From the IMG/VR virus record IMGVR_UViG_2551306526_000001: a stretch of 20,028 bases of DNA; one strand, given 5' to 3'. Made by a program: the position numbers. The DNA comes from a virus. Its lineage: Duplodnaviria; Heunggongvirae; Uroviricota; Caudoviricetes. Shown here in pieces: positions 6,001 through 9,000 of this stretch; position 1 is the stretch's first letter, and each line of letters starts with the position of its first letter.

Positions 6001-9000
6001 ATCCGTCGTGCTGGTGGCGTGGAATGTCTTGAAAGCTGGTTACTTCGTGAAAAAGGCTGCCAGTGGCCTCATTCCGACTGGCACAGCGAGAACATGACCA
6101 CAATGCGACACGCTCCGGGCGCAATCCGTCTGTGCTGGCACTGCGATAACCAGCTGCGCGATCAGTTCACGGAACGGCTGGAATCAATGGCAACGGATAA
6201 CTGTGCTCGCTGGGTGTTGTCTGTTGTGCGTCGGGATCTCGGTTTTGATGACAGTCACGTTGTGACAATGCCGGAACTGTGCTGGTGGCTGATTCGTAAT
6301 GACCTGGCGGATGCCTTACCGGAAAGTGCAGCCCGTAAGGCACTGAGATTACCGAAGCCTGTTGTGCCGTCTGTCACCCGGGAAAGTGACCTTGTGCCTT
6401 CGGTTCCTGCCACCAGCATCATCCAGGATAAGGCGAAAAAGGTGCTGGCGCTGAAAGTGGATCCGGAGTCGCCGGAGTCTTTTATGTTACGCCCAAAACG
6501 TCGCCGCTGGGTTAATGAAAAGTACACGCGCTGGGTTAAGACACAGCCGTGTGCATGTTGTGGAAAGCCTGCTGATGATCCCCACCACCTGATAGGCCAC
6601 GGTCAGGGGGGAATGGGTACAAAAGCGCATGACCTCTTTGTGTTGCCTTTGTGCAGAAAGCATCACGACGAGCTGCATGCGGATACCGTGGCATTTGAAG
6701 AGAAGTATGGCTCCCAGCTGGAGCTGATATTTCGTTTTATCGATCGTGCGCTGGCAATTGGCGTGCTGGCCTGATTTTGTGGAGAAAGTTGATGCGTGAT
6801 ATTCAAATGGTTCTTGAACGTTGGGGTGCATGGGTGGCAAATAATCACGAGGATGTCACCTGGTCGTCTATTGCTGCAGGATTTAAAGGACTAATCCCTT
6901 CAAAAGTAAAATCCCGCCCGCAATGTTGTGACGATGACGCGATGATCATTTGTGGGTGCATGGCTCGCCTGAAAAAGAACAACAGCGATTTGCACGATTT
7001 ATTAGTGGATTATTATGTAGGTGGTATGACGTTTATGGCGCTTGCCCGTAAACATGGGCGTTCTGATTGCTGGGTTGGGCGTTTATTGCAAAAGGCTGAA
7101 GGTGTAGTTGATGGCATGTTAATGATGTTAGAAATTGAGCTAGAGATGGATCGTTAGAAGACCTCTTATTGAGGGGGTAATTGAATCAGTTTAATGTGTG
7201 GGGAGTCGATTTATTCTCCCCATTTTATTTAATTAATTTACTTAAGGTTTTAATTCATCAAGACGTTGTTGGATAGTGTTTTTGCTTGCGTTGTCTGTTA
7301 TAGCCATTTGTTGTACTTGCCCCATTGCCATTTGAGTTTCCATCCACATATCGGCCCACACTTTTGTATCGTTATTAACTTGAGCGATAGTAAATCTGAC
7401 TTTTGATACCGGGGTTGTTGAATAGGCATTGCCGATTAACATTTGTCCAAAAACAGCAGACCCGCCCTCCAGTTCTTTACCACATATAACACTGCTGTTA
7501 TCCGCGTTGTAAATTATCAACCCTCTACTATTGCAGTAATTCACAAGGGCATCTTTGACTTTATCTTTTGTCGTATTTTGATAAACCCCCTCAGGTTTTC
7601 CTGATTGAGTTTTCTTTATCAATGGTACGGAAGAAGTACAACCTGAAATGATAGTTGCGCTAAGTAATAATACAGTCATTTTATTCATGTTTCTTATCCA
7701 TTGTTAAGGGCATACCCACACAATTATTTTTATTGGAGATGAATAATCAACCGTTTACAATCGTAAAAAATCAAATATGCTGTTAAGAGTGGTTACTTCG
7801 CCACACAACTTAAACCCGCCGCTGAGCGGTTTTTTTGTACCTGTAAACCTGGTGCAGTACAGTAAACACGCTGGTGGTCGTGAATACTGACTTTTTATCT
7901 TGCTGGCTTTTTAGACAAGAGTTATTGGTATGTCATGTTAACCAGAAGGGAAAAAGACATGCTAAAACAGCAAGATATGACAGAAACCGCCGCAGCAGTC
8001 CTTCATTTCTTACCTGCTGACAAGTGGGTAACGCCACGCATGATGACGAGAACTACCGGAGTAAGCGAAGCCCGGTGCCAGTTAATACTGACTCAGTTAG
8101 TTCTGGCGGGTCTGGCGAAGGATAACGGCGGGTACGGGAATAAATTCAGACGCTGCCAGTAATGGCGGTTTCCTGCTGTGAAAATGGGCGGCTGGTGGGT
8201 GTTGGTAGCACCTGCCAGCCATTCGCTCATGCTTACTGGTCACAAGCGAACCACGGCCCACTGCTTTAGCGCAAAAGCAGAGTGAGCCTACCAGAGTTAC
8301 GCTTACTGATCCATGAAAAATACTGTAAAAATAAACAGTGTTGATTTAATCAACGCTGATTGCCTGCATTTTATTCAGTCCCTGCCTGATGATTCCATTG
8401 ACCTGATTGTTACCGATCCGCCGTACTTCAAGGTGAAACCCAACGGCTGGGACAATCAGTGGAAAGGGGACGAAGATTACCTTAAGTGGCTGGACCACTG
8501 TCTGGCCCAGTTCTGGCGGGTGTTAAAACCTGCCGGAAGCCTTTACCTGTTCTGTGGGCATCGCCTGGCATCTGATATTGAGATCATGATGCGTGAACGT
8601 TTCAACGTGCTTAACCATATCATCTGGGCGAAGCCGTCCGGACGTTGGAATGGGTGTAATAAAGAAAGTCTGCGCGCATATTTTCCTGCCACAGAGCGCG
8701 TTCTGTTTGCTGAACATTACCAGGGGCCATATCGCGGCAAAAGTGACGGCTATGCGGCAAAAGAAAGGGAACTCAAACAGCACATAATGGCACCGCTGAT
8801 ATCGTATTTCAGGGATGCTCGTGCCGAACTGGGTATAACGGCAAAACAAATTGCCGAAGCCACAGGTAAGAAAAATATGGTTTCCCACTGGTTTGGTGCC
8901 AGTCAGTGGCAGTTGCCGAATGAGGCTGACTATCGGAAGTTACAGGCACTGTTTTCCCGTATAGCGGCAGAGAAGTTTCAGGAACAACAACTGGAACAAC

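What the first reader, a model, noticed from the sequence alone, without database searches (positions are those of the whole stretch)
7242..8162. Moron block between Q and the methyltransferase: minus-strand lipoprotein and small winged-helix ORF
A lipoprotein gene (7242-7688, lipobox IISGC) is transcribed against the late operon right after the candidate tR' terminator, followed by a divergent intergenic region (7689-7958) and a small HTH-like ORF (7959-8162). This is the position where lambdoid phages carry lysogenic-conversion cargo such as stx, bor or porin genes. The lipoprotein may affect the cell surface, for example serum resistance or receptor masking; the small ORF may regulate the MTase.
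Basis: inference. Interest (0 to 1): 0.4.

Follow-up and report, generated by a model that had tools for sequence, protein, structure and literature searches.

The report
Prophage cargo lipoprotein beside late promoter
A lambda-like E. coli prophage carries a small self-contained "add-on" gene for an outer-membrane lipoprotein of unknown function, probably used to fend off other phages. It sits in a swap-in cargo slot between the late-gene activator Q and its promoter, and the neighbouring small DNA-binding gene belongs to a separate methylase module.

Summary
Both ORFs are real and lie at the stated coordinates. The 148-aa ORF (7242-7688, minus) has a canonical lipobox (ISGC, Cys17) and belongs to PHROG 3152, function unknown, with no Pfam, NCBIfam or PADLOC model.

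It lies on a 603-bp AT-rich cassette (7151-7753) that also holds a hairpin and a promoter-like site. The cassette fills a variable slot between the stop codon of a QuuD/Q21-type Q gene and a conserved 83-bp promoter-plus-terminator element (7753-7835). I read that element as pR'-tR'.

The gene is therefore upstream of the late operon and divergent from it, not inside it. The 7200-7219 hairpin is the cassette's terminator, not tR'. In other prophages the same slot holds the NmpC porin (DLP12), a HEC-04-like ATPase, or other cassettes.

In other genera, homologues sit inside siphovirus tail-tip gene clusters. That position fits phage exclusion, but the lipoprotein does not co-vary with the J receptor-binding end.

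The small ORF (7959-8162) is a stand-alone winged helix, the first late gene. It is usually, but not always, paired with an orphan adenine methylase. It is independent of the lipoprotein.

This is an ordinary moron encoding an uncharacterised protein family, of modest interest.

The parts
6777..7157 (+). Antiterminator Q gene, QuuD type, a distant relative of phage 21 Q. It forms the left flank of the cargo slot.
   Evidence: Pfam PF06530, E 2e-51. PDB Q21 chains 6jnx/6p18, E 7e-9. 82.6% DNA identity to K-12 quuD.
7151..7753 (.). Cargo cassette (moron): 603 bp, AT-rich, variable between prophages that share both flanks.
   Evidence: blastn against same-Q prophages L008/L009/L011 breaks at 7150 and resumes at 7754. 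GC is 32-42%. Other prophages carry different cargo in the same slot.
7198..7223 (.). Hairpin between the convergent Q and lipoprotein genes. It is terminator-like on the + strand (followed by TTTTATTT) and is also the 3' hairpin of the lipoprotein transcript.
   Evidence: Terminator scan. RNA fold -13.0 kcal/mol, z -3.1 on the + strand; -11.2, z -2.7 on the - strand. The sequence is cassette-specific, and other cargo types bring their own hairpin after Q.
7242..7688 (-). Gene for a 148-aa predicted outer-membrane lipoprotein of the PHROG 3152 family.
   Evidence: ORF and lipobox. phrog_3152, E 1e-104, full length. Homologue alignment. AF2 model, pLDDT 85.8.
7723..7750 (-). Sigma-70-like promoter candidate for the lipoprotein gene (TTGATT-16-AATAAT), about 28 nt of leader before the ATG.
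   Evidence: Consensus scan, 9 of 12 matches. Sequence read. It lies inside the cassette. Consensus-level evidence only.
7754..7781 (+). Late promoter candidate pR' (TTTACA-16-TATGCT), back to back with the lipoprotein promoter.
   Evidence: Scan. It is the first base conserved with same-Q prophages. Conserved next to quuD-type Q in DLP12, L008 and L055. The variant-Q locus L060 keeps TTTACAATCGTAAAAA followed by TATGAT. Phages with other Q types share only from 7775-7813 onward.
7782..7838 (+). Conserved initial transcribed region plus a short hairpin and T7 run: candidate tR'.
   Evidence: Terminator scan hit 7818-7830 + TTTTTTT. Annotated as 'terminator' in phage Ayreon. The hairpin is stronger in DLP12 (8 bp). 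Alignment.
7959..8162 (+). 67-aa stand-alone winged-helix protein (PHROG 331), the first ORF after tR'.
8163..8312 (+). Highly conserved, structured leader between the winged-helix gene and the methylase gene.
   Evidence: 94% mean column identity, including a Salmonella prophage whose flanking DNA is only 76% identical. 12-bp hairpin at 8190-8220 and palindrome at 8261-8280. Fold -61.6 kcal/mol, z -2.6. No Rfam hit.
8313..9365 (+). Orphan beta-class N6-adenine DNA methyltransferase, 350 aa, a late gene.
   Evidence: PF01555, E 2e-42. PADLOC MTase_II PDLC03265, E 3e-152. Its length, DPPY...FxGxG order and prophage location match the M.EcoGI/GII description in PMC5778455. Sequence identity to M.EcoGII was not tested.

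Best explanation
The finding covers two unrelated modules that happen to be adjacent.

(A) Lipoprotein cassette. Positions 7151-7753 are a self-contained moron: a hairpin, a gene for a 148-aa lipoprotein, and its own promoter-like site. It occupies a recombinational cargo slot between the stop codon of a QuuD/Q21-type Q gene and that Q's late promoter-terminator element (pR' about 7754-7781, tR' about 7816-7838). The gene points away from pR' and is separated from Q by a hairpin. It is therefore outside the Q-dependent late transcript and can be expressed from the repressed prophage (inferred).

The product has a signal peptide and the lipobox ISGC, with Thr at +2. It should be lipidated and sorted by Lol to the outer membrane. 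It is predicted to form a compact alpha+beta domain, probably with a Cys52-Cys69 disulfide.

Its most likely role is to act at the envelope against superinfecting phages, blocking adsorption or DNA entry. It may also protect progeny from cell debris. It probably does this by binding a conserved envelope or tail-tip component rather than the specific receptor of the phage's own J protein.

(B) Winged-helix and methylase module. The small ORF (7959-8162) is a 67-aa stand-alone winged-helix protein and the first gene of the late transcript. It is normally coupled, through a strongly conserved structured 150-nt leader, to an orphan adenine methyltransferase. It is most likely a DNA-binding partner or regulator of that late module. 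It has no connection to the lipoprotein.

Shown here: gene reality, family, cassette boundaries, slot variability, conservation of the pR'-like element, folds, and genomic contexts. Inferred: expression in lysogens, outer-membrane localisation, exclusion function, and regulation of the MTase.
For: Gene and lipobox. Family: phrog_3152. 823 representative clusters match the profile, and 115 of the top 148 have a lipobox.

Cassette boundaries 7150/7754 against same-Q prophages. GC trough. Promoter-like site and hairpin.

Alternative cargo in the same slot:
- nmpC in DLP12
- a 483-aa ATPase hitting PADLOC HEC-04 at 3.9e-47
- 182+308-aa and 175+214-aa gene pairs, and a 420-aa gene stacked with the lipoprotein
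- a Blc-like lipoprotein directly after Q in L060-type prophages
- two minus-strand genes in phage cdtI

pR'-tR' assignment: the 83-bp element is 85.5% conserved about 120 bp upstream of essD in DLP12. It accompanies this Q type whatever lies between or downstream. Phages with other Q types share only from about 7775-7813 onward.

Mobile-element association of the family:
- 21 of 25 divergent IMG/VR loci have the gene on the same strand inside siphovirus tail modules, at TMP-M, M-L, K-I or TMP-J junctions
- a P1-like dar region
- a Paraburkholderia prophage
- an integrase island
- next to ToxN on a plasmid-like contig

Precedent: lipoprotein genes within the structural cluster of the temperate non-lambdoid coliphages of the mEpimmI group exclude phages (PMC11893012).

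Independence of the modules. Winged-helix fold. wHTH-MTase synteny in 41 loci with fixed spacing, and across different Q and lysis cassettes in E. coli and Salmonella. Conserved leader.

Against: The lipoprotein does not co-vary with the J C-terminus. L155 and L156 have lipoproteins 99% identical and J N-termini 97% identical, but J C-termini only 26% identical. The window type is about 77% identical to Salmonella and Jejubacter lipoproteins while the J proteins are 21-36% identical. This argues against a Cor/Llp-style block of the phage's own receptor.

Distant members are fused to PDZ, TPR or SHOCT domains, which points to a general envelope domain.

The promoter call is only 9/12 to consensus. 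The minus-strand hairpin is not followed by a U-run. The tR' hairpin in this window is weak: 4-5 bp, fold z -0.95.

Five loci carry a wHTH variant without the MTase.
Confidence: 0.5

Rival explanations
1. The lipoprotein is a Cor/Llp-type receptor blocker. It would bind the outer-membrane receptor used by its own phage's J protein and mask it.
For: It is a predicted outer-membrane lipoprotein. Homologues sit next to tail-tip and J genes, as cor and llp do next to receptor-binding genes (established knowledge). mEpimmI lipoproteins exclude phages that use the same receptor (PMC11893012).
Against: There is no co-variation with the J C-terminal domain: L155/L156 lipoproteins are 99% identical while the J C-termini are 26% identical. 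The E. coli cassette is unlinked from the tail module. There is no sequence or fold match to a known exclusion lipoprotein. The family is strongly conserved across distant Proteobacteria, with motifs SGxPE, GNxYSTTP and ETQMAxGQ, which suggests a conserved target.
Confidence: 0.12
2. The lipoprotein is a lysogenic-conversion factor that benefits the host in its niche, for example serum resistance, adhesion or envelope robustness like Bor, Lom or TraT. It would not be an anti-phage function.
For: It sits in the slot that carries the NmpC porin in DLP12. Bor-like lipoproteins are classic lambdoid morons (one search shows Bor in related prophages). The structural neighbour Flpp3 is a Francisella outer-membrane lipoprotein.
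Against: There is no match to Lambda_Bor or any other Pfam family. The family occurs in environmental and insect- or nematode-associated bacteria such as Rhodoferax, Paraburkholderia, Photorhabdus and Arsenophonus, and mostly inside tail operons transcribed late. That does not fit a mammalian-host virulence role.
Confidence: 0.12
3. The lipoprotein serves the phage's own lytic cycle in the periplasm. It might act as an immunity or buffer against the tail-tip NlpC/P60 hydrolase gpK or the tape-measure protein. It might tune lysis, or keep progeny from re-adsorbing to debris.
For: Most homologues are co-oriented with the late tail genes and tightly packed among them, often directly after gpK (NLPC_P60) or the tape-measure gene. 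Here it lies close to the lysis cassette.
Against: In this window it is on the opposite strand and outside the late transcript. It is dispensable, since most related prophages lack it: 185 of 5426 E. coli genomes carry it, against 1421 that carry the adjacent segment.
Confidence: 0.13
4. The small winged-helix protein is a dedicated controller of the adjacent methyltransferase, functionally like an R-M C protein.
For: The two genes are syntenic at fixed spacing (154-172 nt between HSPs) in 41 loci, and across different Q and lysis modules in E. coli and Salmonella. The intergenic leader is conserved beyond the coding flanks and has a palindrome 33 nt before the MTase ATG. Constitutive M.EcoGII-type methylase is deleterious, so tight control is expected (PMC5778455).
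Against: Five loci have a wHTH variant followed by AraC/TerB/NanS-p genes and no MTase. The fold is a winged helix, not the Xre-type HTH of C proteins. No restriction enzyme partner is present. DNA binding has not been tested.
Confidence: 0.3

Closest known systems
nmpC / lc porin cargo of DLP12 and phage PA-2
   Same: It occupies exactly the same slot. K-12 quuD is 82.6% identical to this Q gene. It is followed by minus-strand nmpC and then the same 83-bp promoter+terminator element (85.5% identical) before the lysis genes. Both are outer-membrane proteins encoded convergently with Q.
   Different: The product here is a 148-aa lipoprotein, not a porin, with no sequence relationship to NmpC. 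That the Lc porin replaces the phage's receptor is textbook knowledge and was not tested here.
Cor (phi80/HK022/N15), Llp (T5) and Lpp021/Lpp010 (mEpimmI) superinfection-exclusion lipoproteins
   Same: All are small phage-encoded lipoproteins. Homologues of this one lie within tail or receptor-binding gene clusters, as those genes do.
   Different: No sequence or fold similarity was detected. This protein is about twice their size. It does not co-vary with the J receptor-binding end. No phenotype is known.
Bor / BorD lambdoid lipoprotein
   Same: It is a minus-strand moron lipoprotein in the late region of lambdoid prophages (Bor is seen in related loci).
   Different: The position differs: Bor lies after Rz, not between Q and pR'. 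There is no homology to PF06291.
Lambda, 82 and 21 pR'-qut-tR' late control regions
   Same: A promoter is followed within about 60 nt by an intrinsic terminator, upstream of the first late gene. The promoter-proximal part changes with Q type, and the Q protein is related to Q21.
   Different: Here the element is separated from the Q gene by 0.6-2.9 kb of exchangeable cargo. The Q-binding and pause elements were not identified.
M.EcoGI / M.EcoGII prophage adenine methyltransferases
   Same: These are beta-class enzymes of 349-350 aa with DPPY...FxGxG motif order. They are prophage-borne and silent in lysogens (PMC5778455).
   Different: Identity to M.EcoGII was not measured. The upstream winged-helix gene and conserved leader were not found in a term search of that paper; the full text was not read.

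Membership tests
Moron (Juhala/Hendrix sense) | Extra DNA at a position where related phages differ, with the flanking genes conserved | tested here: met
   The flanks are conserved to 7150 and from 7754. Same-Q prophages carry at least 6 other cargo types there. No empty slot was seen among the sampled loci.
Moron (Juhala/Hendrix sense) | Own promoter and terminator | tested here: inconclusive
   There is a promoter-like TTGATT-16-AATAAT (9/12) and a stable 3' hairpin (z -2.7), but no U-run on the minus strand. No transcript data exist.
Moron (Juhala/Hendrix sense) | Base composition unlike the surrounding genome | tested here: met
   32-42% GC against 45-57% on either side.
Moron (Juhala/Hendrix sense) | Expressed from the repressed prophage | not testable with these tools
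   This needs RNA-seq or 5' RACE on a lysogen.
Bacterial lipoprotein (Lgt/LspA substrate, Lol-sorted) | Signal peptide ending in lipobox [LVI][ASTVI][GAS]C | tested here: met
   MNK + hydrophobic MTVLLLSATI + I-S-G-C17. Cys17 is invariant in 20 homologues. 115 of 148 distant representatives have a lipobox.
Bacterial lipoprotein (Lgt/LspA substrate, Lol-sorted) | No Asp at +2, which predicts outer-membrane sorting | tested here: met
   +2 is Thr here, and Ala/Val/Ser/Thr in relatives. Actual localisation was not tested.
Cor/Llp-type receptor-blocking exclusion lipoproteins | Sequence or fold homology to a known member | tested here: not met
Cor/Llp-type receptor-blocking exclusion lipoproteins | Gene linked to the receptor-binding protein and co-varying with it | tested here: not met
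   Homologues are linked to tail modules. However, lipoprotein identity does not track J C-terminal identity, and the gene is unlinked from the tail in this window.
Cor/Llp-type receptor-blocking exclusion lipoproteins | Excludes phages when expressed alone | not testable with these tools
   A plating or adsorption assay is required.
Lambda Bor family | Match to PF06291 | tested here: not met
   No hit at E <= 0.1.
Winged-helix DNA-binding proteins (TrmB/MarR/IclR-like) | H1-H2-H3 plus beta-hairpin wing fold | tested here: met
Winged-helix DNA-binding proteins (TrmB/MarR/IclR-like) | Sequence membership in a curated family | tested here: not met
   MarR_2 scores only E 0.058, below cutoff. No NCBIfam hit. 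The 'TrmB family' label appears only on relatives about 50% identical.
R-M controller (C) proteins | Xre-type HTH, C-box operator upstream of its own gene, linked restriction enzyme | tested here: not met
   The fold is a winged helix. No endonuclease gene is adjacent. The only palindrome lies before the MTase gene.
Lambdoid pR'-tR' late regulatory element | Promoter plus nearby intrinsic terminator upstream of the first late gene, co-inherited with the Q type | tested here: met
Lambdoid pR'-tR' late regulatory element | Q-dependent read-through and a mapped start site, Q-binding element and pause | not testable with these tools

The most novel reading that the evidence does not exclude
The lipoprotein may represent a large, unnamed family of phage-borne envelope proteins. 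The profile matches more than 800 clusters at 50% identity, and there is no Pfam or NCBIfam model. The genes are habitually embedded at the tape-measure/M/L/K/I junctions of siphovirus tail-tip operons. The family could block phage DNA entry independently of the receptor-binding domain, for example by engaging a conserved periplasmic step or a conserved tail-tip or tape-measure component. That would be a new class of superinfection exclusion distinct from Cor and Llp. In E. coli it would have been re-deployed as a prophage-expressed cassette in the Q-pR' cargo slot.
Probability: 0.22. Interest if true: 0.6.

Novelty: new member of a known kind. Interest (0 to 1): 0.35.

Why it matters
If the exclusion role holds, this family would be a widespread and unannotated source of phage resistance in Enterobacterales prophages. 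About 3% of complete E. coli genomes carry this exact cassette. That is relevant to phage-therapy host-range prediction.

The mapping also defines a cargo hot spot in QuuD/Q21-type lambdoid prophages, between the Q stop codon and pR'. The slot carries porins, lipoproteins and defence-candidate ATPases. It could be mined for new defence genes in the way the P2/P4 hot spots have been.

The conserved winged-helix gene, structured leader and methylase arrangement suggests a testable control circuit for the toxic non-specific adenine methylases of the M.EcoGII type.

Tried and rejected
(1) Sequence family searches for the lipoprotein (Pfam, NCBIfam, PADLOC, PDB) gave only PHROG 3152, function unknown.

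(3) The UniProt name 'VirB7 putative lipoprotein' on the Xenorhabdus homologue is the only functional-sounding label in the family. I set it aside because nothing else in the family supports it.

(4) I tested whether the lipoprotein co-varies with the J receptor-binding end. It does not, so I dropped the own-receptor masking model as the lead.

(5) I tested whether lipoprotein + wHTH + MTase form one unit. They do not.

(6) I rejected the 7200-7219 hairpin as tR', because nothing after the Q stop is conserved among same-Q prophages.

(7) Rfam found nothing in 7100-8400.

(8) Literature searches for the phage records, the lipoprotein or a described Q-proximal hot spot found nothing specific.

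(9) The family is nearly absent from plasmids: 4 records.

(10) I judge the annotated 37-codon ORF 7777-7890 spurious, because it overlies the pR'-tR' element.
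Full report
OBSERVATION. The window is a lambdoid E. coli prophage or phage. Region 6700-8400 is 99.3% identical to Escherichia phages PhiR40_1 and PhiR55_1.

The local gene order is as follows:
- KilA-N protein (5205-5777)
- DUF968/YdfU (5779-6774)
- antiterminator Q, PF06530 (6777-7157)
- a minus-strand 148-aa ORF (7242-7688)
- a small plus-strand ORF (7959-8162)
- a PF01555 adenine methyltransferase (8313-9365)
- P21-type holin, lysozyme, and Rz with embedded Rz1

The 148-aa ORF starts MNKMTVLLLSATIISGC. This is a textbook signal peptide with lipobox I-S-G-C17 and Thr at +2. 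By the established E. coli +2 rule, that predicts Lol sorting to the outer membrane.

It is a real gene. It matches PHROG 3152 over its full length (E 1e-104, function unknown). It has homologues at 50-72% identity in Salmonella, Jejubacter, Citrobacter, Xenorhabdus, Morganella, Enterobacter and Phytobacter. In these, Cys17 is invariant, Cys52 and Cys69 are conserved, and there are strong motifs SGKPE, GNAYSTTP and KVWADMWxETQMAMGQ.

The small ORF's conserved start is at 7959, MLKQQDMTETA.

WHAT THE LIPOPROTEIN SEGMENT IS. I compared the window by blastn with prophages that have the same Q gene (L008, L009, L011). Homology runs up to window 7150, five bases before the Q stop codon, and resumes at 7754. 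The 603 bp in between are specific to this cargo.

That interval has 32-42% GC, against 45-57% on either side. It contains three things:
- a stable hairpin at 7198-7223
- the lipoprotein gene
- a minus-strand promoter-like site, TTGATT-16-AATAAT, at 7750-7723, about 28 nt upstream of the ATG

In other prophages the same interval holds quite different content:
- a minus-strand 483-aa AAA ATPase that hits the PADLOC defence candidate HEC-04 at 3.9e-47
- two minus-strand genes of 182 and 308 aa, or two plus-strand genes of 175 and 214 aa
- a 420-aa gene stacked next to the lipoprotein
- the nmpC porin gene with its IS5, in E. coli K-12 DLP12

Related prophages with a variant Q carry a Blc-like lipocalin lipoprotein on the minus strand directly after Q. 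Phage cdtI has two minus-strand genes there. Each cargo type brings its own hairpin right after the Q stop.

This is a recombinational cargo hot spot, and the lipoprotein cassette is a classic moron. The exact cassette is in 185 of 5426 complete E. coli genomes, whereas 1421 carry the adjoining downstream segment. It is in only 2 of 50,697 phage records and is essentially absent from plasmids.

WHERE THE LATE PROMOTER IS. The first conserved sequence to the right of the slot is an 83-bp element (7753-7835). It consists of a promoter-like TTTACA-16-TATGCT (7754-7781), a conserved stretch, and a short GC hairpin followed by T7 (7816-7838). That hairpin is annotated as a terminator in phage Ayreon.

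The same element, 85.5% identical, lies about 120 bp upstream of essD in DLP12, on the far side of nmpC from quuD. It accompanies this Q type whatever lies between or downstream. A variant-Q group keeps TTTACAATCGTAAAAA followed by TATGAT.

Phages with unrelated Q genes share only from about 7775-7781 (cdtI, mEp460_4F5) or from 7813 (Ayreon, mEp460, Stx2c phages) onward. So the promoter-proximal part changes with the Q type, while the transcribed leader and terminator are shared. This is the behaviour expected of a pR'-qut-tR' region. The Q protein here is a distant relative of phage 21 Q (PDB 6jnx/6p18, E 7e-9).

Nothing immediately after the Q stop is conserved among same-Q prophages. A Q-specific promoter therefore cannot be there.

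I conclude, with about 75% confidence, that pR' is at about 7754-7781 and tR' at about 7816-7838. The lipoprotein gene therefore lies outside the late transcript and diverges from pR'. It is not transcribed against the late operon.

The start site has not been mapped, and the tR' hairpin in this window is weak.

THE LIPOPROTEIN FAMILY AND ITS LIKELY ROLE. No curated family covers it: Pfam, NCBIfam, PADLOC and PDB sequences all give nothing.

A profile search of 1.84 billion representative proteins finds 823 clusters at E <= 1e-3 and 408 at E <= 1e-10. Most have a lipobox. Some are fused to PDZ, TPR/YfiO-like or SHOCT domains.

The AlphaFold model is confident (pLDDT 85.8). It is a compact alpha+beta domain whose best PDB neighbours are generic:
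- SRPBCC-like folds

BFVD gives nothing significant.

Genomic context is more informative. Of 25 divergent IMG/VR loci, 21 have the gene co-oriented inside siphovirus tail modules. It sits between gpK and gpI, between the tape measure and gpM, between gpM and gpL, or between the tape measure and a J-like gene. Other members lie in:
- a P1-like dar region
- a Paraburkholderia prophage next to J and lysozyme genes
- an integrase island
- a position beside ToxN on a plasmid-like E. coli contig

A secreted lipoprotein cannot be a virion part. Lipoprotein genes embedded in tail or receptor-binding clusters are, where tested, superinfection-exclusion genes. Cor and Llp are known examples from established knowledge, and Lpp021 and Lpp010 of the mEpimmI phages were tested in PMC11893012. 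Here the gene shares its slot with a porin and a defence-candidate ATPase. Envelope-level phage exclusion is therefore the best-supported function.

A simple own-receptor mask is not supported. L155 and L156 have lipoproteins 99% identical and J N-termini 97% identical, but J C-termini only 26% identical. The E. coli type is about 77% identical to the Salmonella and Jejubacter proteins, while the J proteins are 21-36% identical. Together with the strong motif conservation across distant Proteobacteria, this points to a conserved target. That target could be a periplasmic or envelope step of DNA entry, or a conserved tail-tip or tape-measure component. This last step is inference.

THE SMALL ORF. 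It is PHROG 331, function unknown. Relatives about 50% identical are labelled 'TrmB family transcriptional regulator' by NCBI.

- IclR, ArsR, Fur and MarR

The protein is only 67 aa, with no dimerisation or ligand domain.

It is the first ORF after tR'. In 41 loci it is followed at a fixed distance by the 350-aa methylase. This holds in phages with different Q genes and different lysis cassettes, in both E. coli and Salmonella.

The 150-nt spacer is 94% conserved, even against a Salmonella prophage whose flanking DNA is only 76% identical. It contains a 12-bp hairpin at 8190-8220 and a palindrome at 8261-8280, 33 nt before the MTase ATG. It folds stably, at -61.6 kcal/mol with z -2.6. There is no Rfam match.

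This supports a functional coupling. However, five loci carry a wHTH variant followed by AraC-like, TerB-like and NanS-p genes and no methylase. The fold is also not that of R-M controller proteins. I rate 'regulates the MTase' at about 0.3.

The methylase fits the published description of the M.EcoGI/GII family: beta-class, 349 aa, prophage-borne, silent in lysogens, toxic if constitutive (PMC5778455). Its position downstream of tR' would explain the silence. I did not measure sequence identity to M.EcoGII.

INDEPENDENCE OF THE TWO MODULES. The identical lipoprotein cassette is found upstream of three different arrangements:
- wHTH + MTase, as in this window
- a 51%-identical wHTH + AraC + TerB + NanS-p (L018 type)
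- the lysis genes directly, with neither wHTH nor MTase (L025/L032)

Conversely, wHTH+MTase is common without the lipoprotein. The 'moron block' is thus a juxtaposition of a true moron and a conserved late-operon module.

COMPARISON AND NOVELTY. The architecture is a known kind: a lambdoid moron in the nmpC/lc position. The lipoprotein family itself is uncharacterised. The explicit mapping of the Q-stop to pR' slot as a multi-cargo hot spot was not found in the literature searches made here.

I classify the finding as a new member of a known kind and rate its interest as modest (0.35). The most novel reading not excluded is a receptor-independent exclusion family embedded in siphovirus tail-tip operons. 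I give it about 0.22 probability.

Noticed in passing
window 8163-8312: The non-coding spacer between the winged-helix gene and the methylase gene is more conserved than the flanking genes: 94% mean column identity, including a Salmonella prophage. It holds a 12-bp hairpin (8190-8220) and a palindrome, CTGCTTTAGC|GCAAAAGCAG (8261-8280). It folds at -61.6 kcal/mol (z -2.6) and has no Rfam match. It may be a leader or operator controlling an M.EcoGII-like methylase.
   Followed up: partly
window 16524-16722 (+): Full-length match to the Rfam family IS009 (RF02111), 225 bits against a gathering score of 117.
   Followed up: no
window 7777-7890 (+): A 37-codon ORF annotated as a CDS in PhiR40_1 overlies the pR'-like promoter and the tR'-like hairpin. 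It is probably an annotation artefact.
   Followed up: partly
L008 2136-3587 (-), and L056-L058: In prophages with the same Q and the same downstream genes, the cargo slot holds a 483-aa AAA_15/AAA_21 ATPase that matches the PADLOC defence candidate HEC-04 (E 3.9e-47).
   Followed up: partly
L060 6549-7073 (-): Prophages with a variant of this Q gene carry a Blc-like lipocalin lipoprotein on the minus strand directly after Q. It is followed by a 319-aa gene and an AraC-like regulator before the holin.
   Followed up: no
window 7991 and 7877: There are further mosaic joints. Homology to L018-type prophages ends at 7991, inside the invariant N-terminus (MLKQQDMTETA) of the winged-helix gene. Homology to L025/L032 ends at 7877. 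The invariant N-terminal coding stretch may act as a recombination linker.
   Followed up: no
L174 6001-6453: A homologue of the lipoprotein in E. coli, 45% identical, lies on a contig of about 44 kb. It sits next to a ToxN toxin gene, near a three-gene cluster (ABC transporter, Asn-synthase-like, transglutaminase-like) that may be a lasso-peptide/microcin J25-type export cluster (inferred from the Pfam combination only), and an H-NS-like gene.
   Followed up: no
window 10362-10550 (+): An embedded Rz1-type lipoprotein ORF ([20 protein letters not shown]...) lies inside the Rz gene. It is the expected o-spanin and a second lipoprotein in the window.
   Followed up: no
window 8313-9365: The methylase matches the published description of the non-specific adenine methylases M.EcoGI/GII in length, motif order and prophage location. 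Its position behind tR' would explain why such genes are silent in lysogens. Sequence identity to M.EcoGII was not checked.
   Followed up: partly
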